Assembly: GCA_963838345.1 (NCBI GenBank)
Contig: CAWIQU010000008.1
Location: 442,305-506,304 of the forward strand
Direction: 5' to 3'
Origin: an uncultured Acidobacteriaceae bacterium
GTDB taxonomy: Bacteria > Acidobacteriota > Terriglobia > Terriglobales > Acidobacteriaceae
DNA length: 64,000 nt
The translations under genes and the position numbers were made by a program. The stretch's first letter is position 1; each line of letters begins with the position of its first letter. Under the pieces are notes generated by a model that was not told where the DNA came from, searched no databases, and worked only from the letters and a program-made list of their open reading frames with translations. Below, one piece after another: positions 11,492-24,112 of the stretch.

Positions 11492-12367
11492 CTATTTCAG
11501 ATCATAGATTCTGATCGCGGTTGCGCCAAAGATCTCAGCGCGCTCGGTCTCGCTGAAGGCGGCAAAATAACTCCGGAGCACCTGCCACCATCGAGCATAT
11601 CCGGTTGCAACCAGACAGACAGGCCAATCAGAGCCGGCCATCAGTCGATCCGCTCCGAATGCTTCGACCACAACATCCAGATAAGGCCGCAGCGACTCCA
11701 TTGACCAGCTAGACCATGCGTCCTCGGTCACCATGCCTGAGATTTTGCAGGATACATTTTCGCGCTGGCTCAACTCGCGCATCAGGGTTCGCCAGGGTTC
11801 GCTCTCTCCGGCTGCGATTTTTGGCTTTGCAATGTGGTCGAGGACAAACGGCTGTTGTGGATGCCGATCGACGAAGCGAATCGCTTCCTCGAGTTGACTC
11901 TCGACAATGAGCAGATCATAGATAAGCCCGGTTGTCCGCATGGCCCGGATACCGCGATTGAAGTCTGCACCATCCAGGAAACCTTGCGGTTCAGCCTGGA
12001 CGACATGACGTAACCCCACCAGCTTCGGTTCATCCGCGAATGCAATCAGCGAGGCCTCAAAATCAGAAGCAGCAAGGGGAGCCCATCCCACGACACCCCG
12101 AATTGCTTCGCAGCTTCGCGCAGCTTCAAGTAGCCATCGCGTCTCTTCGAGCGTCTGCCGTGCCTGCACGGTGACGGCGCCATCTACACCTGCATTCGCA
12201 AGCTCGGCGACCAGATCAGGTGTCAGGAAATCGCGGCGTATCGCCGCCATACTAGCGTTGATCCAGTCGTACTCGGCGGGGGAGTAGCGCCAGAGGTGGT
12301 GATGGGCGTCGATGACTGGGCAGTTTGTCGATTCAGGCAAGCGTATTTCTATTGTGTTCGATGGCAT
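11492..12367 (-). CDS. Amidohydrolase family sugar lactonase (L-fucono/L-galactono-1,5-lactonase-like)
   Basis: IDAHHHLW..., VQA, GVVGW, GLRH, LDHIAKP, CKISG and MAGSDWPVC motifs. Confidence 0.87.
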   Translation of the reverse strand: MPSNTIEIRLPESTNCPVIDAHHHLWRYSPAEYDWINASMAAIRRDFLTPDLVAELANAGVDGAVTVQARQTLEETRWLLEAARSCEAIRGVVGWAPLAASDFEASLIAFADEPKLVGLRHVVQAEPQGFLDGADFNRGIRAMRTTGLIYDLLIVESQLEEAIRFVDRHPQQPFVLDHIAKPKIAAGESEPWRTLMRELSQRENVSCKISGMVTEDAWSSWSMESLRPYLDVVVEAFGADRLMAGSDWPVCLVATGYARWWQVLRSYFAAFSETERAEIFGATAIRIYDLK

Positions 12368-12902
12368 CTAATCGTAAGTTGTCTTTCGATTCGAACTTGT
12401 GCGTGTTGTCCTGACGCTTTTCCATTAGTCTACATAGACTTTCAAGCGATCGATGCCACATCTTCCTGCACCAGGCACTTTCTGCCGCATCTTTGAACCC
12501 GCTGTGTTTCAAACCGAGAATACAACCCCGTGGACTACGCAGGAGCTGCATGTCAACCAGGGTTTCCGTGGTGCCAAAGGGAGACATTCTCTTCCAGGTA
12601 TATCGCACCTGATTCGCGTTCATGACACAGCAAGAACCATGAATGCTGGCCTGAAGCGCTCCGGCGCGATAGAGGTCAATACGGAAGGACTCCGCTGCTA
12701 CGAGATTGAAGACAAACTGCAGCTCCTCTGCATCCGGGGTCTGCAGCCATGCTTCGATATATTCCGGGATGCTGAGCGCATACAACACACGGCTGCTATC
12801 GGCCTCAATTTTGACCGAAAGAGAGACGTCCCTCACATGCCGGTTCGGAATCGTTGCTATCATTCCAGAATCTTTTAGAGTATTTCGCTCAAGAGTGTTC
12901 AC
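12333..12902 (-). CDS. SRPBCC/Aha1-like domain protein
   Basis: IEADSSRVLYALSIPEYIEAW...LKHSGF...W.RSLESL pattern; GAGGTG SD before GTG. Confidence 0.6.
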   Translation of the reverse strand: MNTLERNTLKDSGMIATIPNRHVRDVSLSVKIEADSSRVLYALSIPEYIEAWLQTPDAEELQFVFNLVAAESFRIDLYRAGALQASIHGSCCVMNANQVRYTWKRMSPFGTTETLVDMQLLRSPRGCILGLKHSGFKDAAESAWCRKMWHRSLESLCRLMEKRQDNTHKFESKDNLRLDAIEHNRNTLA

Positions 12903-13233
12903 GTATCACCTCGTCTGCACACGGAGGAAGCATTTCAGCCTCCGAAGGACGAATCGTAGGCAACAATGTGACGAGAATGCGTTGTCAGGGATGAACCGAT
13001 CTGTGCGAGAGGTCGCCTGGTAGTGGCAACTAGCTCGCAAATCGATACCCTCAGCATCCTGTAGCTGATTGCTATGAATTTGCGAAATTGGGTATAGCGC
13101 ACTTCCACATTCTGAGATTATGTGGTGAAACGCAGCAGACAGGGATGAACGGCGTGAAATGCGCCACGTCTTCCATAGTCGGCGCGAGTGTTCTGCAAGG
13201 CACGGCCCTTCAAATGCAGAAATCAGTATGGGA

Positions 13234-13992
13234 TCAGCTGTGGGTCAGCCATCCGTTGATACGGGACCGATAGCCGCGACTCATCGTAAGCTTTTCGCCA
13301 TTTACCAAAACAACCGCATAGTCGCCGTCAGCTTCAGTGCGCACTTCCTTCACGTGTTGCAGATTGACGATGGAGGAGCGATGCACGCGCAAAAACATAT
13401 CCGGGTCCAGCTTTTCTTCCAGACGAGCCATGGTCTCGCGCAGCAGATGCGTCTCGGTCTGCGTGCTTATGCGCACGTAATTTTCCTCTGCGCTGATCCA
13501 GCGAATGTCTGACACCGGAAGGAAGACAATCCTGCCGCGGGACTTGAAGACGATACGGGTCGTATAACGGCTTCCGTTCTGAGCGGTCGCACCGTTAGCT
13601 GCCGGCTGCTGATTGGCGAGAAGTATCTCTTTGCGAGCGCGCTCCACAGCTGAAGAGAGTCGCTCGCGAGTGAACGGCTTCAGCAGATAGTCCACCGCGT
13701 GAATTTCAAAGGCACGCAGCGCGTACTGATCATGCGCAGTCGTAAAGATGATGTGCGGTGTTGGCACGTTCTTGCAGGAACAAAGCTCTGTGGCGATATC
13801 GAAGCCATCCATGCCGGGCATCTGGATATCGAGAAAAAGCAGGTCCGGTTTGGTGGCACGCACCAGGTCGATCGTCTCGCTCGCCGTCATCCCCTCACCG
13901 ACGACGTCTATCTCTGGCTCATCCCGTAGAAGCTGGCGCAGCTTTTGTCGAGCGAGCACCTCATCATCTGCCAAAACAGTATGAATCATCAC
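13234..13992 (-). CDS. LytTR family two-component response regulator
   Basis: ADDE, PDLLFLDIQMPGMDGF, IFTTAHDQYALRAF...DYLLKP receiver; FLRVHRSSIVN LytTR domain. Confidence 0.93.
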   Translation of the reverse strand: MMIHTVLADDEVLARQKLRQLLRDEPEIDVVGEGMTASETIDLVRATKPDLLFLDIQMPGMDGFDIATELCSCKNVPTPHIIFTTAHDQYALRAFEIHAVDYLLKPFTRERLSSAVERARKEILLANQQPAANGATAQNGSRYTTRIVFKSRGRIVFLPVSDIRWISAEENYVRISTQTETHLLRETMARLEEKLDPDMFLRVHRSSIVNLQHVKEVRTEADGDYAVVLVNGEKLTMSRGYRSRINGWLTHS

Positions 13993-15137
13993 ACACCATA
14001 TCCTGTGAGCTTTCCGGTTGGAAGTTCTGAGAATTGCAAGGGGAGCGCTAAGGTCACCCGGACTTTACCGTGTGCCATCTCCTCTATGTTGAAAGCCTGG
14101 TCGCTGCCGTAGTGCAAACGCAAACGATCTCTTACATTGGTGAGTCCCACACCCCGCCGTCCGTTTCCGTTCGTGGACAGTGGATGTAAACCTAACCCAC
14201 TGTTAATCACGCTGATCATCAGTGTTGCGTTCTGGCGGCGCACGTCCACGCTGATCACGCCATCCCTGTCCAGCTTCGAAAGGCCGTGAGTATAAGCATT
14301 TTCGATAACCGGCTGTAGAAGCATGGCGGGTATCAGTGCATCGTGCAGATCGGATTCGACGGAGATCTCCTGTTGCACACGGCCGGTGAATCTGCGGTCC
14401 TGCATCGCCAGATACATCTCTATAAATTCCATTTCGTCGCTGAGCGGGATTAGCTGCACCTCGCCGCGTTCTAGCGTGATACGCAAGAGGCTGCTAAGTT
14501 GTTCCAACATTTTGTCGGCGGCAGCAATGTCGGTCTGCATCAGGCTGGAGATGCTGTTCATCGTGTTGAAAAGAAAGTGCGGATTCAACTGCATGCGCAG
14601 GGCGCGGAGCTGAGCGTTGGCAAACTGCGCCTCCAACTGGACAGCCGCATGTTCGGTCTCGCGGTAGAGCTGGTAGTACCCGATGCCGCGAAGCAAGAAG
14701 AAGACCGACCAGAAGATGACCATGTTGTCGACCAGTTCTGCATCCAGGTGGAATACAACACGATGCCAGTAGGTCATACGGGGCAGGCCAACGGGCAACT
14801 GTGGGAAGAATGCAACCCAGATCATCTCTTCAAGCACACTCACGGCCACGCTCAACGGCAGAACGCGCGTCATCATGGTCAAAAAGGTTGCCGTTTGAAT
14901 AAGCGGTCTCAGCTGCCACCACAACAGCCAGCTGATGGTCCCCCACAGAAAATAGTGCACGCACCACGCTGCCATCACAAGCCTAAGTGTGAGCGTGGCG
15001 GGGATGGAGTGATTCCACGAGTGCATACTGGCCCACTCCTGCAATGCAAACAACATCCCCAACAACGTGAATGCTCCCACGAAGATGATCGGATTCAGGA
15101 ATGGAAGTGCTGTACGATCTTTTACTTTCGGGAACAA
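13989..15137 (-). CDS. LytS/YpdA-type membrane sensor histidine kinase
   Basis: N-terminal TM segments; LRMQLNPHFLFNTMN H-box; LLQPVIENA, GVGLTNVRDRL motifs. Confidence 0.92.
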   Translation of the reverse strand: MFPKVKDRTALPFLNPIIFVGAFTLLGMLFALQEWASMHSWNHSIPATLTLRLVMAAWCVHYFLWGTISWLLWWQLRPLIQTATFLTMMTRVLPLSVAVSVLEEMIWVAFFPQLPVGLPRMTYWHRVVFHLDAELVDNMVIFWSVFFLLRGIGYYQLYRETEHAAVQLEAQFANAQLRALRMQLNPHFLFNTMNSISSLMQTDIAAADKMLEQLSSLLRITLERGEVQLIPLSDEMEFIEMYLAMQDRRFTGRVQQEISVESDLHDALIPAMLLQPVIENAYTHGLSKLDRDGVISVDVRRQNATLMISVINSGLGLHPLSTNGNGRRGVGLTNVRDRLRLHYGSDQAFNIEEMAHGKVRVTLALPLQFSELPTGKLTGYGV

Positions 15138-15188
15138 GTTCAGTGGTGGACCCTACGCTTTCTGTGCAAATTGCACGGCTAAGTTTAT

Positions 15189-16325
15189 TCAAGAACTGGA
15201 AAGAGGAAGCAATTGACCCGCAGACGATCCATCGGGGGCCGACGCTATCGCCGCCGCCGGGAAATCGCTCTTTGTCCCTTCTTTATAGACGAAAGCAAGT
15301 GCAAGAGAGTGATGCTCAAACCATGTATTCGCCGCGAAATCTGCCGTTCGTCGCTCGTCAGCTCCAATCTTCGCCGCGAGGGTATCGATGTCCCGCTTCA
15401 TGAGATGGTTAGCTTCCGCCCCACCCTGCAGAACAGCGACGCGGAAGTGAAAATATGCGGCCTTGTTGTCGATTGGCATACCGCGCCCATCGCGTGCCAA
15501 AACGCCAAGCACGATGGAAGATTTCCAGCTCCCCGCATTCGCGGCCGTCTCCAGAAGAGCAAGACTTTGTTGAGGATCCTGCTTGAGTTCAGGGTGGTTG
15601 ACCAGCAGAAGCCCAAGCGAATGCATCGCCGGTACGTATCCTGCGTCGGCTGCCTGACGTAGCAGCTCCGCAGCCTTAGGCAAGTCTTGCGGATGGTCCG
15701 CATACGCCGAATAGAGCAATCCAAGGTTGTAAGCAGCCAAGGGTTCATGCAGTTTCAACCCTGATTCGAACCATTTCTCCGCGGCAATCTTGTCCTCTTT
15801 CACAGCGATGCCGAAGAATGAAAGAAGTCCGAGATAGGTAGCAGCGGTGCCATTGCCTTCCTGAAAGGCCTCGTTCAGCAACTGGACGGCAAGATCACCG
15901 TTCTTCTGAGTTCCCGCTCCATGCAGGTAGACGACTGCCAAATTGACCTTAGCCTTGGCAAAGCCCGAAGACGCAGAGAGTTGATACCAATGGACCGCGC
16001 GTTTGGAATCCTGGGACACTCCGATTCCAGCCTGGTAGAAGTAGCCGATCTGGTTCTGCGCTTGCGGGTCTCCATGTCCGGCCGCCTTCTCGTACCAGTA
16101 AGCTGCCATCTTCGGGTCTTGCTTCACGCCCTTTCCGATGAAGTAATCTCCCGCTAGGGTAATCTCATCGCGAATTGATCCTTGTTCCGCAAGCATACGA
16201 ACATGTTTCAGATCTTCTGTCCCTCCCGTGTCAACGTAGGCATGCAGGACAGTGCAGGGACCGCATGCAACCAGGAGAACAGCAGCCCCAAAGCGGTTGA
16301 TGAATTTCCACGCGGTAGGAATCAT
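15189..16325 (-). CDS. Secreted Sel1-repeat protein
   Basis: Signal peptide; repeated A..WY..AA..G...AQ..LG..Y..G.G units; GGAGG SD before ATG 16325. Confidence 0.88.
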   Translation of the reverse strand: MIPTAWKFINRFGAAVLLVACGPCTVLHAYVDTGGTEDLKHVRMLAEQGSIRDEITLAGDYFIGKGVKQDPKMAAYWYEKAAGHGDPQAQNQIGYFYQAGIGVSQDSKRAVHWYQLSASSGFAKAKVNLAVVYLHGAGTQKNGDLAVQLLNEAFQEGNGTAATYLGLLSFFGIAVKEDKIAAEKWFESGLKLHEPLAAYNLGLLYSAYADHPQDLPKAAELLRQAADAGYVPAMHSLGLLLVNHPELKQDPQQSLALLETAANAGSWKSSIVLGVLARDGRGMPIDNKAAYFHFRVAVLQGGAEANHLMKRDIDTLAAKIGADERRTADFAANTWFEHHSLALAFVYKEGTKSDFPAAAIASAPDGSSAGQLLPLSSS

Positions 16326-16539
16326 GGTTCCCTCCATATCCCAATTGCGACTTAGCACTCACTTGAAATTTGTTGGGCCGACCGGAACGTCTCTAGGTGT
16401 CACCTAGACGTGAGCCGCTACGCAACGGTGATCGAAGTAGTTCCGCGATTTCAGGCTATTTACCGCGTGAAATAGCCTGTTGAACCCACCCCCATACCTC
16501 TGGCAGAGACAAACGGTTCATTCGTCACAAATCTCGCAA

Positions 16540-16582
16540 TTAAATAAATGAAGAGGGCCGAAAGCAGAACTTCCGGCCCTCT
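16540..16582 (-). terminator. Rho-independent terminator after the frameshifted TBDR
   Basis: AGAGGGCCG/CGGCCCTCT stem followed on the minus strand by TCATTTATTT. Confidence 0.6.
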
Positions 16583-16602
16583 GGGGAGGACTGAAAACTT
16601 TG

Positions 16603-19600
16603 CTAGAACCTGAACTTTGCCCAAAGCAACAAGTGGCGGAACGTTGGTTCTACTGCATTCTGCTTATTCAGGTAGCTGCTGGTCCCGATATCCAACAGGT
16701 TGATGTCCAGCGGACCGATGTTGTTGTCATTCGTAAAGTTCTGCGCCTCGACACGGAAGACGAACATACCTCGATCGAAGTGCAGCCACGTTGACGGAAC
16801 GTCCTTCTCCACAGCGATGTTCCAATACTGTGCGTTCGGATTCGTGAAGCTGTTGCGTCCCACTTCCTGGGTTGTAAATTGTGGTCCGTTGGGCACAAGC
16901 CAGTGCACTTTGTCCGCTGTGGTGGGGTTGCCAGTCACAGCGTCGTAATAAACACCGGGAGTGAGACCGAAGTAAGTTCCATCAAAGCCGGCCGTATCGA
17001 TTGGCTGATGCGGATTGCCCACAAGTGGACGGTCGTTGGCTGTGCTGCCATCACCATTCGTATCCAGGCCACTGACGTTGAACGTGCTGTGATAACCGGA
17101 CTGCAACTGAGTGGTTCCGGAGATCGTGATGTGACGCGTAAAGGCGCTGGCCAGCACATCCGCGGCCCGGTTATTGGAATGGAATCCGGCCGGTGACCAC
17201 GCATAACTAAACGACACGTAGTTACGGTGGTCCCAGACCGAGGGCCCCCAGTCCTGCCCCAGGCCATTGCCGTGAGAGATTGGCCGAGTAGGACGTAGGC
17301 GCCGCAAACGTAGCAAATACATCGGATGCATCGTCCAGGTCTTTTCCGTACGTGTAAGCCACGCGGAAGAACAGACCGTGGGAGAACTGGCGGGTGACCT
17401 CCGTCTGCAGGCTGTTGTACTCCGAATCAGCGCGGTTGGCGCGTATGTTGATGGCATTGCGAGTCGGGTTGATGCGTGATCCGTTGATGAAGTAGTTCAG
17501 TTGCTGGTTGGCATAGAGTTGCCCGCCGTGGTTACCTACGTAGTTAACCGTCAGCTTGATCTGAGCTGGCAATTGCCGCTCCAGGCCGAAGTTCCACTGC
17601 CAGGTAAGAGGATTTCTCAAGTTACTTGCCACACTCTGAACGGAAGACATAGGACTTAGCGTGGGAGTAATGGTGCTGAGAAGCGAAGTGGCGTTGGCCA
17701 GTCCGCGACCAGTGGTGGAGGTGAGCAGGCCCGTGGGAGCATTCGGCGAAGACTGCGCGCCATTGGTAGCGATATTGGTGAAGTCAGTGTCGTAAAAGAG
17801 GCCCAAGCCACCGTGGAAGACCGTCTTACCATCGCTGAAAATGCTCCCGTGCGGGTTCCACGCAAAGCCGAAACGCGGGGCGAAATTGTTCGTATCGTTC
17901 TTCACCTTGACGACGGTATTGATCGGCGCGAAGGGATTGTTCAAATCAATCGCGGGATACTGAAGCGAGTTTTCCGGCGGCGTGAAATAGTCATACCGCA
18001 TGCCTACGTTGATCGTCAGGTCCGGTGTCAGTTTGATATCGTCCTGCACGAAAAAGCCGCTCTTCCATGAGTGCGGATCGATGCGCGTTGGACCGAAGGT
18101 CTTGCCGGCTGAACCGGATGAACCCAGATAGTTATCGAGGAAATTATCCAGGGCAGAAAGAGCGCCTCCCTTGGCAAAGACAAGACCACCGAGAGCGTTC
18201 TGTGCTACGACGTCCGTTTCAATCTGACGCCCTACGTCCGCACCGAAGCGGATCGTATGACGATTGAGTGCCCAGCTTATAGTGTCTTGAAATTGATAGA
18301 GTTCCTCGTTGTCTCCCTGCGGTATGTTCTGCGAGATGCCGAGTGGGGACGCTGAACCACCGAAGCCCTGTCCACTAAACGTAATGTTGTAGTTCTTCGA
18401 CAGGGGGTTGGCGACCGTCTCCGGAGTTGGCTGAAAGAGGAAGTTTACTCGGGTCTCTGAAGCTCGAAACTCGTTGAGCATACGCGGCGTGAAGACATGG
18501 GTCCATGTGCCCAGGCCGACTTCAGCAGGGCCGCCGACCTCACCATCGAAACCGGGCAGGCCTGAGGTGTTCAATGCCAGATCCGGATCAAAGTTGGCGC
18601 GATCATGCAGATAACGAACGGTGAACGTATCCTTTGCGCGCGGAATGAAATCGATGCGATAGATCCATTGGGTTTCGGGTTCCTGTTGCGGTACCGGGGG
18701 GCGCTCAAACAAAGCGGTCGTAATGGAACAGCCCGCAGTGCAGCCGCTGCGCGGACTGATCTTGTATGCGTTTGCCGCACCAACGTTGGTGTACTCGGTA
18801 AGATAGGCCCCTCCAGAGAGATAGCTTTGCAGCAGAGCGACCTGCGGTCCGCCAATCGCCGTCAACTGCGCGTAGCCCGTAGCGTCTGGTAGTTCGACTG
18901 AGCCGGGCTGTGAATTGCCATAGAAGCGCGCAAACTGCAACGCGCCGAAGCCATAGAGTTTGTCCTTCCAGATTGGACCGCCGACAGTAAAGCCAAACTG
19001 GTGCTGGTCATAGCGCGCCTTTGGATTGGTAGCGTAAGGCTTCCCTTGACGCGTGATACCGTCCAGTGAGTCAAGGCCGGATCCGGTGTAGAGCTCCCAC
19101 AGATCCCCGTGATACTGGCTCGTCCCGGATTTGGTGATGAGGTTGACCACGGCACCGCCCGAACGGCCGTACTCCGCCGATGCCGAATTCGTCAGGGCGG
19201 TAATGCTCTGATAAGCATCAGGAATCTGGATGTTAAATGCCTGGCCTCCTATGCCGATGTCGTTGATATCCTGGCCATCCATCATGAAGTTATTGCTGCG
19301 CGGGCGCGCTCCATTCACTTCAATCTGCTCAAAGTTACCGCCGATGCCGCCGAGCCCAAGGTTCGAATCCACGATCTGAACGCCGGGCACCGTCTGCAGC
19401 AACTCGATCGGATTTAAGGTGAAGACGGGAATCTTCGAGAGCTCTGCGGTGCCGACTGTACTCGATAACTGGCCGTTTTCCGTGTTGATAGTGTTCGAGT
19501 TCGCTTCAACGGTAACGGCTTGCGAAACCTCACCAACGGTGAGCACCGGATCGAAGGTTGTCACAACTGAGGAGACCACATTGACGTCACGCGTATTCGC

Positions 19601-19873
19601 CGTCTCAAAGCCGCCGGCCTGCACGTTCACCGTGTAATGGCCGGAGTTCATAGCATCGATGCGGTAGGCCCCACGCTCATCGGCCACCGCACTGCGCGCC
19701 TCGCTTGTCTCCTGCGAAGTCACAGTAACCTTGGCTCCGGGAATGACAGCGCCGGTCTTATCGCGCACAATCCCCGCGATAATTCCTTTGCTGGTCTGTG
19801 AGTTGGCAGGAAGACTGGTTGCAATAACCAGAAACAAAGCGACCGCAGTCACAAATGTGCGCTTCAAGTTCAT
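16603..19873 (-). pseudogene. TonB-dependent receptor (carboxypeptidase regulatory-like N-terminal domain), split by a frameshift near 17272
   Basis: ORFs 17222..19954 and 16603..17457 carry the N- and C-terminal parts of one receptor. Removing one base at ~17272 joins ANLS to GNGLGQDWGPS and gives 1090 codons ending in the aromatic WAKFRF. Confidence 0.8.
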
Positions 19874-20486
19874 TTTTTGTTTCTCCTTGGATTTAGGCAG
19901 AGAACTCGTTTGATTGCATGCATGGCGGGGCCGGCGGTGACTGCATCTCTGCAATCACGCTTCAACTCTCATCCCTTCCACCAAGGGACTGAGTTGTATT
20001 CACCGGCGTCCTCGCATGCATTTGCTGCATTAGTTTCACTGGCCTCGATGAGGTATCGTGCAACTGGATATCCGAAACGCAATGCCGGAGCGATGTATGT
20101 GACGAGAAGCGGTTGAGTGTGACGGAATGCACTCTACCGGATAGGAGAGGGGCGGGAGCGCTGAATTGCGACACAGAAGACAAAGAAAATGCGCCAGCGA
20201 TCTCCGTTTATTCGAACAACTCGCACTTTCCTTCTTCGGTTATCTATATGGGGGACGGAAATTCACCCTGCGGGGATGAACGGCGCATAGCAGTGACCAA
20301 CGGAAGATAAAACACCAACAATACGAGTTGATGAATCACCGCGCCTATTGAAATTGGAATAACTCCACCGCGCATTATTCTCGTCCACGCGCGACATATT
20401 CGGGAGCTCGAGCTTGAGCTGGACTGTAACCTGCACGATCACGCCGAAGAAAAAAATGGAGCCTTTTTTCTTAGAACCGTAACACT

Positions 20487-20496
20487 TGATATATCA
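20487..20496. promoter_or_regulatory. Palindrome TGATATATCA, candidate repressor operator
   Basis: Perfect 10-bp palindrome ~80 bp upstream of the TBDR start at 20576. Confidence 0.35.
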
Positions 20497-20575
20497 GATA
20501 TAAACAAATCACCCATAAAGTGCACTTAGTCACCGATAACTTTTGGGCTTCATTCGGCACTCTTTGGGAGATCAC

Positions 20576-23500
20576 GTGAAACGCATTCTTTTTGTCCTTC
20601 TGGCAGTAGGTTTTCTCGCAGCGCGATCGATTTCACTCTATGCACAGTTCGAGACTGCGTCTGTCCTCGGTTATGTGCGCGATTCCTCTGGCGCCGTCGT
20701 CTCTGGTGCAACCGTCTCGCTCGTCAATCAGGAGACCAAGGCACAGGTGACAGCCGAGACCAACGCTCAAGGCGCCTACGAGTTCACTGACGTAAAGATC
20801 GGGCAGTATCAGGTCACCGCGCAGGCAAACGGGTTTGGTCCCAGCACCACGCAGCCGTTCACCGTCACCGTCAACGCCCGTCAACGTGTCGACGTCGCGT
20901 TGAAGATCGGTTCCAACACCGAGACAGTCACTGTCGACGCCGCTGCCGCCTCCTTGTTGGAGACCGACAACAGCGAACGCGGTCAGGTCATCGGCACCCG
21001 CGAGGTCGAGAACCTCCCGCTCAATGGTCGCGCCTACGCCGACCTTGCCGCTCTCGTGCCCGGCGTGCGCCGCAACATCCTAGAGAACTCAACCGACTCA
21101 AGCCGCGACGCCTCCTTCAACGTCAACGGACAGCGCAGCGAGTTCAACAACTTCCTTCTCGACGGCCTCGACAACAACGCCTACGGAACCTCAAACCAGG
21201 GCTTCTCCAATCAGGCAATTCCTCCCTCGCCCGATGCGATCTCCGAGTTCCGCGTCGAAACCGACAACTATAGCGCAGAGTACGGCCGTTCCGCAGGCGC
21301 CGTCATCAACGTCAGCATCCGCAGCGGCACCAACCGGTTTCACGGCAAGGCCTACGACTATCTGCGCAACACCATCTTCAACGCCATCGGCCCCTTCACG
21401 CCGCCCACCAATCCGCTCACCGGAGCAGCACAGAAGCCCGTCCTCATCCGCAATCAGTTTGGCGGAACCTTCGGTGGCCCCATCTGGAAAGACCACACCT
21501 TCTTCTTCGCCGACTATGAAGGCACTCGCCAGGTCGTCCACGCCGTCAATCAGGCGACCGTCCCCACGGCCAACCAGAACGGAACCAGCGCCCTCGCCAT
21601 CGCCAACGGCGGCTACACCTTCCTCTCGGGCAGCAGCACCGAGAACGGCGCGCCCGTCTCCCTCCTCAATCCCATCACCGGCCAGGCTTATCCCAACGGT
21701 GTTATCCCCTTCAGCGATCCCTCCGTCTCCTCCTTCGCCAAGGGTGTCCTCGCTGCTCTCCCCGCTCCGAACGTTCCCGGCAATCCCTACAGCAATAACT
21801 ACGCCTCTCTGCCCGCCGACACGATCAACGACGACAAGGGCGACATTCGCGTCGACCAGACCTTCAACCAGCGCAACACAGCCTTCGTCCGCTACAGCCA
21901 ACATCAAGGAAAGATTGCATCTCCGCCTAACATTCAAGGGCCGGCCGGCGGCAACAGCAACGGCACCGTCAACATCTTCAATCAGCAAATAGCCGGTGGC
22001 GTCACGCACATCTTCAATCAAAACTCGATCCTCGACGCCCGCTTCGCCTTCACCCGCACCGACGGCGGTAAGAGCCCCTACGGAGCAAATCTACCCAGCC
22101 TGATGACCGGCATCCCCGGTCTCCCAACCGATCCCGCAGTCGTCCGCAGCCTCAACGTCCAAAGCGTCAACGGCTACTCCCAGTTCGGCAATCAGGGCAG
22201 CAACCCTCAGTACCAGAATCCCTACATCTACAACCCGAAGATCAACTACACACAAATCCGAGGGCGCAGCACGTACAAAGTTGGCTACGAGTATCAAGCG
22301 ATCTTTACCACCATCGACGACTTCAACCCCGTCTATGGTCAGGACACCTACAACGGCGGCTATAGCTTCAGCGGAGCCACCGCCAGTGCTCTCAGCGGGT
22401 CCAACACCGGCACCAAGGAGGCCGTCGCTCTCGCTGACTTCCTCTTCGGCGCGCGCGACACTTATCAGCTCAACAACTTCGTCAACGTCCATCTCAACCA
22501 GCGGATGAATTACTTCTACTTTCAGGACGACATCCGCGTGAACTCTCGCCTCACCGTCAACGCCGGCCTGCGCTACGAACTCGTAACTCCACAGTGGGAG
22601 TCCAGCAACAAGCTCTCCAACTATGATCCCGGCACCCAGTCCCTCATTCAAGCCACTCCCGGCTCGCTCTACAACCGCGCTCTGGTCAACATGCCGAAGC
22701 TCGACTTCGCTCCCCGCTTCGGCGTTGCATACTCGCTCACTCCGAAGACAGTCGTTCGCGCTGGCTACGGCCTCGGCTACGCTCAGTTCAATCGTGAGGG
22801 CGGCGAGAACCTGCTCGTCTACAACCTGCCGGCCATCGTCAACACCAACATCGTTCAGGGTCCACAGTTCGCCAATCCCGGCGTTCTCGGCTCACAAAAA
22901 GCGCTGCCCATCTGCACCGCCGCGCAAGCCGGAGCACCATTCAGCTCCACGAACCCGAACCCCTGTTTCCGCACCACCAGCCAGGGCTATCCGACAGGTT
23001 TCACCAGCCCGGCCAATGTCACTACGGCGAGCAACCTTAGTACAGAGGCACGCTACATCCCCAAGAACACACCCACCGGATACGTTCAGAGCTATCATCT
23101 GACCGTTCAGCGTGAGCTCACCAACACGACGACCTTTGAGGCATCCTATGTCGGTAGTCATGGCGTCAAGCTTCAGGTTCTCGCTGACCTCAATCAGTCC
23201 GCAGCCAACGCCGTCACGGCCACTTGCAACCCAACGGTCAACTCAGGCTGCCTTAGCCTTGCAGCGCGCCGCCCCATCCCCACCTTCACCACCATCGAAG
23301 AGAGCCTCTCGCAAGGCTTCCTCAGCTACAACGGTCTCCAGACCAAGCTTGAGCATCGAGCCGGTCACGGCCTCTATCTGTTGAACTCCTTTACATGGTC
23401 GCGCGCAATCGACAACGCCTCCGGGCACCTCGACACTCCCGACGGCGACAACTCCCGCATCAACCTGGCCAATCCACTCGGCGAACGCGGTCCCTCCGCC

Positions 23501-24112
23501 TACAACCAGCCGCTGAACGACATCCTCTCCATCGTCTACGATCTGCCCTACGGCAAGGGCCGCATGTTCGGCAGCAGCGCTCCTTTCATGATGCAGGAGG
23601 TGCTCGGAGGCTGGCAGGTCACAGCGATCAATAGCGCCAGCAGCGGTCTTCCCGTCAACATCACTTACTCTCCCAACAGCTTCCAGCAGGTCAGCCCGCT
23701 GCTCGTTCAGCGTCCCAACCTCACCGGCAACCCTGTCATCCCCAAAAACAAGCGCATCAAAATTGCGGGTAATCAGGACCTCGTTGCCTTACAAAATCCG
23801 GTCTTCGGACTCACAGGCAATGCTGTCCTGAGTCTGCCGGACGTCAATCATCCTTACGGAAGCGCGGGTCGCAACTCGGTACGCTTCGATCCTTTCTACC
23901 AACTCGACCTCGGTCTGCACAAAAACTTTCCGCTCCGTCTCGAGGGTTCCTCATTCGACTTCCGCGCCGAGGCCTTCAACATCTTCAATCAGACCAACTA
24001 CGCCTTCCCTCAGAGCGGCTACAGCCCCACCTCCAGCAGCTTCGGCGTCGTCGCTGCAGCATCCACCTTCCCGGCGCGTATCCTGCAGTTCGCCGGTAAA
24101 ATTATCTTCTGA
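20576..24112 (+). CDS. TonB-dependent receptor (carboxypeptidase regulatory-like domain, Oar-like)
   Basis: Signal peptide; G.VRDSSGAVVSGATV, LPLNGR, NNFLLDGLDN, EYGRSAG.VIN plug motifs; ends RILQFAGKIIF. Confidence 0.92.
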   Translation: MKRILFVLLAVGFLAARSISLYAQFETASVLGYVRDSSGAVVSGATVSLVNQETKAQVTAETNAQGAYEFTDVKIGQYQVTAQANGFGPSTTQPFTVTVNARQRVDVALKIGSNTETVTVDAAAASLLETDNSERGQVIGTREVENLPLNGRAYADLAALVPGVRRNILENSTDSSRDASFNVNGQRSEFNNFLLDGLDNNAYGTSNQGFSNQAIPPSPDAISEFRVETDNYSAEYGRSAGAVINVSIRSGTNRFHGKAYDYLRNTIFNAIGPFTPPTNPLTGAAQKPVLIRNQFGGTFGGPIWKDHTFFFADYEGTRQVVHAVNQATVPTANQNGTSALAIANGGYTFLSGSSTENGAPVSLLNPITGQAYPNGVIPFSDPSVSSFAKGVLAALPAPNVPGNPYSNNYASLPADTINDDKGDIRVDQTFNQRNTAFVRYSQHQGKIASPPNIQGPAGGNSNGTVNIFNQQIAGGVTHIFNQNSILDARFAFTRTDGGKSPYGANLPSLMTGIPGLPTDPAVVRSLNVQSVNGYSQFGNQGSNPQYQNPYIYNPKINYTQIRGRSTYKVGYEYQAIFTTIDDFNPVYGQDTYNGGYSFSGATASALSGSNTGTKEAVALADFLFGARDTYQLNNFVNVHLNQRMNYFYFQDDIRVNSRLTVNAGLRYELVTPQWESSNKLSNYDPGTQSLIQATPGSLYNRALVNMPKLDFAPRFGVAYSLTPKTVVRAGYGLGYAQFNREGGENLLVYNLPAIVNTNIVQGPQFANPGVLGSQKALPICTAAQAGAPFSSTNPNPCFRTTSQGYPTGFTSPANVTTASNLSTEARYIPKNTPTGYVQSYHLTVQRELTNTTTFEASYVGSHGVKLQVLADLNQSAANAVTATCNPTVNSGCLSLAARRPIPTFTTIEESLSQGFLSYNGLQTKLEHRAGHGLYLLNSFTWSRAIDNASGHLDTPDGDNSRINLANPLGERGPSAYNQPLNDILSIVYDLPYGKGRMFGSSAPFMMQEVLGGWQVTAINSASSGLPVNITYSPNSFQQVSPLLVQRPNLTGNPVIPKNKRIKIAGNQDLVALQNPVFGLTGNAVLSLPDVNHPYGSAGRNSVRFDPFYQLDLGLHKNFPLRLEGSSFDFRAEAFNIFNQTNYAFPQSGYSPTSSSFGVVAAASTFPARILQFAGKIIF

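What the first reader, a model, noticed from the sequence alone, without database searches (positions are those of the whole stretch)
12948..20303. Recurring GGGATGAAC(C/G)G box with a degenerate partner 20 bp away: candidate LytTR regulon
Seen: GGGATGAACGGCG is identical at 13142-13154 and 20273-20285, and GGGATGAACCG lies at 12988-12998, all intergenic. Each has a degenerate half-site 20 bp away (12970 GACGAGAAT, 13124 GGTGAAACG, 20295 GACCAACGG). GACAAACGG also lies at 16508, upstream of the Sel1 gene. Established: LytTR domains bind ~9-bp direct repeats about two helical turns apart. Inference: the local LytS/LytTR pair controls the SRPBCC gene, the Sel1 gene and the divergent TBDR promoters, defining a self-contained sensing and uptake system for an unknown ligand.
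Basis: partly seen in the sequence, partly recalled or inferred. Interest (0 to 1): 0.62.

Follow-up and report, generated by a model that had tools for sequence, protein, structure and literature searches.

The report
AlgR-like operator repeats around LytTR cassette
The recurring GGGATGAAC box is real: it is one variant of a 12-base repeat (CCGTTCGTCACA-like, paired every 20-21 bases) that looks like the docking site of the neighbouring LytTR response regulator in a soil Acidobacterium, an ordinary kind of switch not previously described for this group.

Summary
All three boxes sit at the stated coordinates, and each has a partner half-site exactly 20 bp away. Read on the gene strand (minus), the box is CCGTTCATCCC. 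It is a minority variant of a 12-mer whose consensus, built from orthologous loci only, is CCGTTCGTCACA. That consensus contains the published AlgR core CCGTTCGTC, and the window's variants CCGTTCATC and CCGTTGGTC are both footprinted AlgR sites.

Half-sites occur as direct repeats 20-21 bp apart, the usual LytTR layout. They are conserved upstream of the AHSA1/SRPBCC gene, the TonB receptor TBDR1 and the Sel1-kinase-regulator operon. This holds in about 17 related cassettes from several Acidobacteriaceae genera.

Its Sel1 site at 16508 is not conserved. The regulon is not self-contained, because similar pairs lie upstream of three more TonB receptor genes elsewhere in the genome. The link to TBDR2 is unproven, and TBDR1 carries a frameshift here.

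Binding by the regulator is inferred, not shown. Transcription starts, the sign of regulation and the ligand are unknown. This is a new member of a known kind, of moderate interest.

The parts
12333..12902 (-). p189: AHSA1-like (SRPBCC superfamily) cytoplasmic protein, the candidate output gene
   Evidence: The window copy scores 18.8 bits on PF08327, below the 22.1 cut-off. Six of 7 orthologues match, best E 9e-8. A profile of the 7 hits PDB 3q63 at E 3.4e-5. Its position next to the regulator gene is kept in L001, L002, L003, L006, L009 and L014.
12926..12948 (-). Hairpin in the probable 5' leader of p189 (CGGAGG-CTGAAATGCTT-CCTCCG)
   Evidence: Read from the alignment and the sequences. The loop GAAATGC is kept while the stem sequence differs between orthologues. 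Not tested formally.
12967..12998 (-). A weak third half-site lies at 12945-12956.
   Evidence: Scores are 9.6 and 11.5 bits with a matrix built without window data. Both halves are conserved in L001, L002, L003 and L006, and GTCACATTG is invariant.
13072..13081 (-). Conserved block AAATTCATAG between the two p189 operator pairs, function unknown
   Evidence: Conserved in all four aligned orthologues. Related words occur upstream of TBDR1 and after a second LytTR regulator gene.
13121..13152 (-).
   Evidence: Scores are 11.3 and 6.5 bits. Pairs or triples occupy the aligned position in L001, L002 and L003.
13234..13992 (-). Response regulator with receiver and LytTR DNA-binding domains, the proposed binder
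   Evidence: PF00072 E 6e-25 and PF04397 E 3e-27. It is one of only three LytTR genes in the genome. The loci of the other two have no motif pairs.
13989..15137 (-). Sensor kinase of the LytS/YehU/AlgZ class: about four membrane helices followed by a His_kinase domain
   Evidence: PF06580 E 1e-24. H-box NPHFLFN and N-box LLQPVIENAYTHG are visible in the translation. Compare AlgZ RPHFLFNSL and LQPLLENALIYG in PMC4064291.
15189..16358 (-). Sel1-repeat protein with a lipoprotein-like signal (…AAVLLVAC), first gene of the Sel1-kinase-regulator operon
   Evidence: PF08238 E 4e-36. Sequence. The ExoR model hit is weak, 23.9 bits against a 450-bit cut-off.
16405..16444 (-). Candidate alternative-sigma (ECF-like) promoter of the Sel1 operon: GGAAC-N16-GCGTA-N10-GTCTA
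   Evidence: Conserved in five close orthologues and recognisable in L008 and L009. The pattern is unique in the genome. The assignment to a sigma factor is my inference.
16518..16529 (+). Strongest single half-site of the window, TCATTCGTCACA, 160 bp upstream of the Sel1 ORF and in the opposite orientation to it. This is the probable autoregulatory site.
   Evidence: 16.5 bits. ATTTGTGACGAAYG is invariant in five orthologues. In more distant cassettes the same place holds full 21-bp pairs: L007, L011, L013, L014, L015, L016, L017.
16505..16516 (-).
   Evidence: 10.1 bits but not conserved in orthologues.
16552..16582 (-). Intrinsic terminator after TBDR1, separating it from the Sel1 operon
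   Evidence: 14-pair stem followed by a T-run.
16603..19954 (-). TBDR1: TonB-dependent receptor with a CarboxypepD_reg N-terminal domain, split here into two ORFs by one extra base near 17263
   Evidence: Pfam hits. The orthologues are contiguous. The single-base insertion is shown.
20098..20129 (-).
   Evidence: 14.1 and 13.9 bits. Third-best pair in the whole genome with the matrix built without window data. Conserved in L002, L003 and L006, with equivalents in L004, L008 and L015.
20251..20303 (-). It lies 318 bp from the TBDR1 start and 240 bp from the TBDR2 start.
   Evidence: 13.4, 9.5 and 4.5 bits. L002 and L006 have a full triple spanning 42 bp.
20345..20357 (-). Invariant block CCAATTTCAATAG upstream of P1, function unknown
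   Evidence: Identical in WIN, L002, L003 and L006. Also present upstream of the paralogous receptor gene at C6:358259.
20543..24112 (+). TBDR2, divergent from TBDR1. Membership of the regulon is doubtful.
   Evidence: Pfam hits. Homologues next to cassettes L010, L011 and L017 have no motif upstream.

Best explanation
The boxes are half-sites of the operator of the locally encoded LytTR response regulator (13234-13992).

On the gene strand each half-site is a 12-mer with consensus CCGTTCGTCACA. Half-sites are arranged as two, sometimes three, direct repeats 20-21 bp apart. That spacing would place two regulator molecules on the same face of the DNA, as in other LytTR systems.

Inferred mechanism: the four-helix membrane kinase (13989-15137) phosphorylates the regulator, possibly modulated by the exported Sel1 lipoprotein. 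The regulator then occupies the pairs upstream of p189 (P4, P3) and TBDR1 (P2, P1) and the site upstream of its own operon (16518). It thereby controls an outer-membrane importer, a small-molecule-binding cytoplasmic protein and itself. It probably also controls at least three other TonB receptor genes elsewhere in the genome.

Shown: the motif, its spacing, its conservation and its linkage to the cassette. Inferred: binding by this protein, activation rather than repression, and the roles of the Sel1 protein and the ligand.
For: 1. An unbiased 7-mer count in the intergenic regions of 13 orthologous cassettes puts TCGTCAC first: 36 copies against 2.3 expected, in 12 of 13 loci.
2. The consensus is CCGTTCGTCACA, with or without window data.
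3. Spacing of same-strand pairs in 19 loci: 11 at 20 bp and 14 at 21 bp, with 2 or fewer at every other spacing from 9 to 44.
4. In the window's own genome, pairs at 20-21 bp are almost all intergenic, 9 of 11. Pairs at other spacings are almost never intergenic.
5. With a matrix trained only on other genomes, three of the eight best pairs in 5.85 Mb fall in this locus.
7. The only DNA-binding protein encoded in the conserved cassette is the LytTR regulator.
8. The loci of the two paralogous LytTR genes have no such pairs.
9. Published AlgR data: ChIP-seq consensus CCGTTCGTC, and footprints CCGTTCATC and CCGTTGGTC (PMC4787818).
10. LytTR sites are described as two imperfect direct repeats of 8-13 bp about 12 bp apart (PMC4064291; PMC4847170).
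11. Pairs at 21 bp also occur next to regulator homologues of 35-47% identity in other phyla: 7 at 21 bp against 2 or fewer at most other spacings, in 951 kb.
Against:
- Transcription starts are unknown, so the position of the sites relative to promoters, and hence activation versus repression, cannot be judged.
- Orientation relative to the downstream gene is not constant. It is forward for p189 and TBDR1 and reversed for the Sel1 operon and two distant receptor genes.
- Single half-sites are barely enriched outside genes: 19-23% intergenic against a 12.6% background.
- Similar pairs exist in relatives that lack a close orthologue of this regulator. The motif class is therefore probably shared by several LytTR paralogues and cannot be assigned to this one by distribution alone.
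- AraC-type regulators also use 21-bp direct repeats.
Confidence: 0.74

Rival explanations
1. The repeats are a real regulatory element but are bound by another protein encoded elsewhere, for example an AraC-type or other regulator dedicated to TonB receptor genes. Their closeness to the LytTR cassette only reflects the receptor gene next to it.
For: Three of the five best pairs outside the locus lie upstream of TonB receptor genes that have no regulator gene nearby. Similar pairs occur in relatives without a close orthologue of this regulator. A 21-bp period is not unique to LytTR proteins (my own knowledge).
Against: Pairs are also conserved upstream of p189, and upstream of the kinase or Sel1 gene in cassettes that have no adjacent receptor of this type: L007, L011, L014, L016, L017. 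The half-site equals the experimentally defined site of a LytTR protein. About 55 receptor genes of this class exist in the genome, and only a handful carry the motif.
Confidence: 0.14
2. The conserved words are core promoter elements, recognition hexamers of an alternative sigma factor, rather than a regulator's operator.
For: CGTC is a common -10 word of ECF-type promoters (my own knowledge). GTCACATTG and GTCACATA are conserved beyond the half-site proper. An ECF-like GGAAC-N16-GCGTA is conserved upstream of the Sel1 operon.
Against: Both halves of a pair are the same word, not two different hexamers. The period is 20-21 bp centre to centre and arrays of three or four occur. Orientation relative to the gene varies. 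The simple sigma-70 scan found nothing at the sites.
Confidence: 0.07
3. Chance recurrence of a short word with no function.
For: Genome-wide the 11-mer occurs at the frequency composition predicts, and the 9-mer is not enriched outside genes. A 13-mer shared by two places in 64 kb is not rare in itself.
Against: Conservation at aligned positions in diverged intergenic DNA, the sharp peak at 20-21 bp, and partner half-sites with per-position probabilities of 1e-3 to 1e-5 at the exact offset.
Confidence: 0.03

Closest known systems
AlgZ(FimS)/AlgR two-component system of Pseudomonas aeruginosa and its binding site CCGTTCGTC
   Same: The regulator has receiver and LytTR domains. The kinase has about four membrane helices followed by the unorthodox His_kinase domain, with similar H and N boxes. 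The half-site consensus CCGTTCGTC(ACA) is identical to the AlgR core, and the window's variants CCGTTCATC and CCGTTGGTC are both footprinted AlgR sites.
   Different: AlgR sites are often single and far apart, not regularly paired at about 12 bp (PMC4064291). Here they are strict 20-21 bp direct repeats. The targets here are TonB receptors and an AHSA1-like protein rather than alginate, pili and cyanide genes. Orthology with AlgR was not established: the best NCBIfam models are BtsR and LytR, both below their cut-offs. The organism is an Acidobacterium.
Canonical LytTR operators (AgrA P2/P3, YpdB at yhjX, BtsR, ComE, PlnC)
   Same: Two imperfect direct repeats of 9-12 bases with an 11-13 base spacer, next to the regulator's own operon and its target genes.
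   Different: The half-site sequence differs from those of AgrA and ComE. Arrays of three half-sites spanning 42 bp occur. One autoregulatory site is inverted relative to its operon.
ExoR-ExoS/ChvI, a periplasmic Sel1-repeat protein that modulates a sensor kinase
   Same: An exported Sel1-repeat protein is encoded immediately upstream of, and co-transcribed with, a sensor kinase and regulator.
   Different: This is a resemblance of domain type and gene order only. The ExoR model scores 23.9 bits against a 450-bit cut-off. The kinase and regulator belong to different families, and no interaction is shown.
TonB receptor-linked regulation (FecA-FecR-FecI surface signalling; SusC-linked regulators)
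   Same: A receptor gene lies next to the regulatory genes that appear to control it.
   Different: No ECF sigma/anti-sigma pair is present in the cassette, and no signalling extension on the receptor was identified. The regulator is a two-component LytTR protein.

Membership tests
LytTR-type operator | Half-sites of 8-13 bp | tested here: met
   The informative core is TTCGTCAC within a 12-mer, about 12 bits in total. The definition is taken from PMC4064291.
LytTR-type operator | Two imperfect direct repeats about 12 bp apart (centre to centre about 21 bp) | tested here: met
   The spacing histogram peaks sharply at 20-21 bp in the orthologous loci and in the window's own genome.
LytTR-type operator | A LytTR-domain regulator encoded next to the sites | tested here: met
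   PF04397 E 3e-27 in the adjacent gene. The linkage is kept in about 17 loci.
LytTR-type operator | Sites placed just upstream of the regulated promoter | tested here: inconclusive
   Sites lie 65-320 bp upstream of start codons. No transcription start is known, and the consensus promoter scan was uninformative.
LytTR-type operator | Physical binding by the regulator | not testable with these tools
   Needs EMSA, footprinting or DAP-seq.
AlgZ/AlgR system | Regulator made of a receiver domain plus a LytTR domain | tested here: met
AlgZ/AlgR system | Kinase with about four N-terminal membrane helices, a PF06580 domain, and AlgZ-like H and N boxes | tested here: met
   compared with the boxes quoted in PMC4064291. 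Helices were judged by eye from the sequence.
AlgZ/AlgR system | Recognition sequence CCGTTCGTC | tested here: met
   Consensus against PMC4787818. This is agreement at the motif level, not binding.
AlgZ/AlgR system | Orthology of the regulator with P. aeruginosa AlgR | tested here: inconclusive
   The best NCBIfam models are BtsR (174 bits, cut-off 246) and LytR (162 bits, cut-off 375). No AlgR sequence or model was available for comparison.
SRPBCC / AHSA1 (p189) | Match to the PF08327 profile | tested here: inconclusive
   The window copy scores 18.8 bits, below the 22.1 cut-off. Six of 7 orthologues match, best E 9e-8, and the family profile hits PDB 3q63 at E 3.4e-5. The family as a whole qualifies; the window copy is below threshold on its own.
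ExoR-type kinase modulator (Sel1 protein) | Match to the ExoR equivalog model | tested here: not met
   23.9 bits against a 450-bit cut-off. Only the Sel1 repeats and the export signal are shared.

The most novel reading that the evidence does not exclude
The conserved block of TonB receptor, exported Sel1 lipoprotein, four-helix kinase and LytTR regulator is a trans-envelope signalling device. In this reading, substrate occupancy of the receptor is relayed through the periplasmic Sel1 protein to the kinase, which then switches on a set of receptor genes through the AlgR-like operator. It would be a two-component counterpart of FecA-FecR-FecI surface signalling. The extra conserved blocks (CCAATTTCAATAG, TATAGATAAC…ACGGAGAT, and the 150-nt leader) would be further layers of that control.
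Probability: 0.12. Interest if true: 0.6.

Novelty: new member of a known kind. Interest (0 to 1): 0.36.

Why it matters
Acidobacteria are abundant in soil and carry dozens of TonB receptor genes, about 55 of this class in this genome. Almost nothing is known about how those genes are regulated.

A testable operator (CCGTTCGTCACA pairs at 20-21 bp) tied to a conserved Sel1-kinase-LytTR cassette gives a concrete handle on one such circuit. It names a short list of candidate target genes. It also suggests that the AlgR-type DNA specificity is old and shared across phyla.

It does not reveal a new mechanism. It extends a well-known kind of switch to a poorly studied group.

Tried and rejected
- Rfam search of 12300-21000 at E up to 1: no credible RNA family.
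- Sigma-70 promoter scan: nothing at the sites. Only the terminator after TBDR1 was useful.
- Reading the box on the plus strand as an ECF promoter (TGAAC-N16-CGTC, seen at 13146): rejected because the downstream part is not conserved.
- Reading GTCACATTGTTGC as a sigma-54 promoter: rejected because GG and TTGC are not conserved.
- Co-evolution test 1. I looked upstream of homologues of the distant target receptors in eight relatives, with and without the regulator orthologue. No pairs appeared in any of them, so the test was uninformative.
- Co-evolution test 2. A genome-wide pattern count of YCGTCAC-N13-14-YCGTCAC in 41 genomes was too noisy, with many coding hits. It showed plausible sites in genomes that lack the close orthologue as well.
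- A small ORF between P1 and P2: not conserved (inspection).
- Earlier notes of the scan: none concerned this locus directly.
Full report
**Observation**

GGGATGAACGGCG is at 13142-13154 and 20273-20285, and GGGATGAACCG is at 12988-12998. All three lie between ORFs. The exact pattern occurs three times in the window against 0.12 expected from shuffles.

Across the 5.85-Mb genome the pattern occurs ten times, about what base composition predicts. Three of those ten are in this 7.3 kb. As a single word the 9-mer is not enriched outside genes: 51 copies, 8 intergenic. The case therefore rests on arrangement and conservation, not on word frequency.

**Gene content (all on the minus strand except TBDR2)**

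| Window coordinates | Gene |
|---|---|
| 12333-12902 | p189, AHSA1-like (SRPBCC superfamily) |
| 13234-13992 | Response regulator, receiver + LytTR domains |
| 13989-15137 | Kinase, about four membrane helices + PF06580 His_kinase domain |
| 15189-16358 | Sel1-repeat protein with a lipoprotein-like signal |
| 16552-16582 | Intrinsic terminator |
| 16603-19954 | TBDR1, TonB receptor with CarboxypepD_reg domain |
| 20543-24112 (+) | TBDR2, divergent from TBDR1 |

For p189, the window copy is below the Pfam cut-off, but six of seven orthologues match and the family profile finds PDB 3q63. TBDR1 is split into two ORFs by one extra base near 17263, whereas the orthologues are contiguous. The genome has only three LytTR genes.

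**Orthologous loci**

The organism belongs to the Acidobacteriaceae; the closest named records are Edaphobacter and Tunturibacter. I collected about 17 loci whose regulator is 62-89% identical. The order (receptor)-Sel1-kinase-regulator-(p189) recurs in them, with some variation.

**What the box is**

Alignment of the p189-regulator spacer shows diverged DNA with a few conserved islands.

On the gene strand the box reads CCGTTCATCCC. In the orthologues it is followed, 20-21 bp on, by an invariant GTCACA. Upstream of TBDR1 and its equivalents, the word cGTCACa recurs two to four times per locus.

An unbiased 7-mer count over the cassette's intergenic regions in 13 loci ranks the words as follows:

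| Word | Copies | Expected | Loci |
|---|---|---|---|
| TCGTCAC | 36 | 2.3 | 12 of 13 |
| CGTCACA | 25 | 1.3 | 11 of 13 |
| TTCGTCA | 23 | 2.1 | 11 of 13 |

Aligned as TTC-R-TC-M-C, the two forms (TTCGTCAC and TTCATCCC) are variants of one half-site. An iterated weight matrix gives the consensus CCGTTCGTCACA, and the result is the same when window sequence is left out.

**Spacing**

Same-strand pairs of half-sites in the 19 loci show 11 cases at 20 bp and 14 at 21 bp. Every other spacing from 9 to 44 bp has 2 or fewer.

In the window's own genome, pairs at 20-21 bp are nearly all intergenic. Pairs at other spacings are almost never intergenic.

With the matrix trained only on other genomes, three of the eight best 20/21-bp pairs in the genome lie in this locus.

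Per-position frequencies of such scores are 6e-5, 1e-3 and 1.5e-5.

**Sites in the window**

| Site | Coordinates | Half-sites (gene strand) | Position |
|---|---|---|---|
| P4 | 12967-12998 | CGGTTCATCCCT, ATTCTCGTCACA | 65 bp upstream of p189 |
| P3 | 13121-13152 | CCGTTCATCCCT, CGTTTCACCACA | just after the regulator's stop codon |
| P2 | 20098-20129 | CATTCCGTCACA, CTTCTCGTCACA | 144 bp upstream of TBDR1 |
| P1 | 20251-20303 | CCGTTGGTCACT, CCGTTCATCCCC, weak third | 318 bp from TBDR1, 240 bp from TBDR2 |
| Sel1 site | 16518-16529 (+) | TCATTCGTCACA | 160 bp upstream of the Sel1 ORF, inverted |

The Sel1 site is the best single half-site in the window at 16.5 bits. It is invariant in five orthologues and is replaced by full 21-bp pairs at the same place in more distant cassettes.

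**Comparison with known systems**

ChIP-seq and footprinting define the AlgR site as CCGTTCGTC. Footprinted variants include CCGTTCATC (czcR) and CCGTTGGTC (mucR) (PMC4787818). These are the two variants present in the window.

LytTR sites in general are two imperfect direct repeats of 8-13 bp about 12 bp apart, whereas AlgR's own sites are often not so arranged (PMC4064291; PMC4847170).

The kinase resembles AlgZ in topology and in its H and N boxes.

The element thus combines an AlgR-like half-site with the canonical LytTR spacing. Orthology with AlgR itself could not be tested, because the best NCBIfam models are BtsR and LytR, both below their cut-offs.

**Which protein binds**

This is inference. 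The points in favour of the local regulator are:

- It is the only DNA-binding protein in the conserved cassette.
- Pairs are kept upstream of the operon's first gene even where no receptor gene is adjacent: L007, L011, L014, L016, L017.
- The two paralogous LytTR loci in this genome have no pairs.
- 21-bp pairs of TTCGTCRC accompany homologues of only 35-47% identity in other phyla.

The points against exclusivity are:

- Good pairs occur in relatives without a close orthologue.
- My two co-evolution tests were uninformative.

**Extent of the regulon**

Outside the locus, the best pairs lie 176 bp and 274 bp upstream of two large receptor-like genes on contig C3. A triple lies about 520 bp upstream of a receptor gene on C6. 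The C6 upstream region shares further conserved blocks with that of TBDR1 (CCAATTTCAATA and TATAACTTAACGGAGAT). Two weaker pairs precede other exported proteins.

The genome has about 55 receptors of this class, so three of five is far more than chance. The system is therefore not self-contained.

TBDR2 is doubtful as a target. The distal array is kept in orthologues that lack TBDR2, and TBDR2 homologues beside other cassettes lack the motif.

**What remains unknown**

The unknowns are the transcription starts, the sign of regulation, the signal and the role of the Sel1 protein. I favour activation by analogy with AlgR, AgrA, BtsR and YpdB, with low confidence.

**Verdict**

The element is most likely the operator of an AlgZR-like two-component system that controls TonB receptor genes in Acidobacteriaceae. 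It is a new member of a known kind. I found no description of it in the paper library.

Noticed in passing
window 16603-19954 (break near 17263): TBDR1 is split into two overlapping ORFs by a single extra base (TCTCACGGCAATGG here, TCTCAC-CCAACGG in orthologues). It is either a real pseudogene or an assembly error.
   Followed up: partly
window 20345-20357 (- strand); also G000 C6:357630 and window 13072-13081: An invariant block CCAATTTCAATAG lies about 45 bp upstream of the distal operator array. The same word, plus a TATA(G/A)NTNAACGGAGAT block, lies upstream of a paralogous receptor gene on C6. Related AAATTCATAG and AAATTCATTAG words lie downstream of this regulator gene and of a second LytTR regulator gene (C8:66470). 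Function unknown.
   Followed up: partly
window 16405-16444 (- strand): GGAAC-N16-GCGTA-N10-GTCTAG is conserved upstream of the Sel1-kinase-regulator operon and is unique in the genome. It looks like an ECF-type sigma promoter. No sigma gene was looked for.
   Followed up: no
window 19950-20097 (- strand): A leader of about 150 nt before TBDR1 is conserved in four orthologues. It contains GAGGCCAGTGAAG and a stem ACAACTC/GAGAGTTG that covers the TTG start codon. The GAGGCCAGTGA word also precedes the Sel1 gene in L004 and L008. There is no Rfam match, and there are too few sequences to test covariation.
   Followed up: partly
window 12926-12948 (- strand): A hairpin lies in the probable p189 leader. 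The loop GAAATGC is conserved and the stem sequence changes between orthologues. It may occlude a GGAGG.
   Followed up: no
G000 C3:955300-955700: A long tandem array of a roughly 20-bp unit (ACACTTGTCMCTTAGCTAAAC) gave a false pair hit. It is unrelated to the operator.
   Followed up: no
L045, L056, L065, L082 (Gammaproteobacteria loci): Direct pairs of TTCGTC(A/G)C at 21 bp lie next to LytTR regulator homologues of 35-45% identity. This suggests the AlgR-type specificity is widespread in this regulator subfamily.
   Followed up: partly
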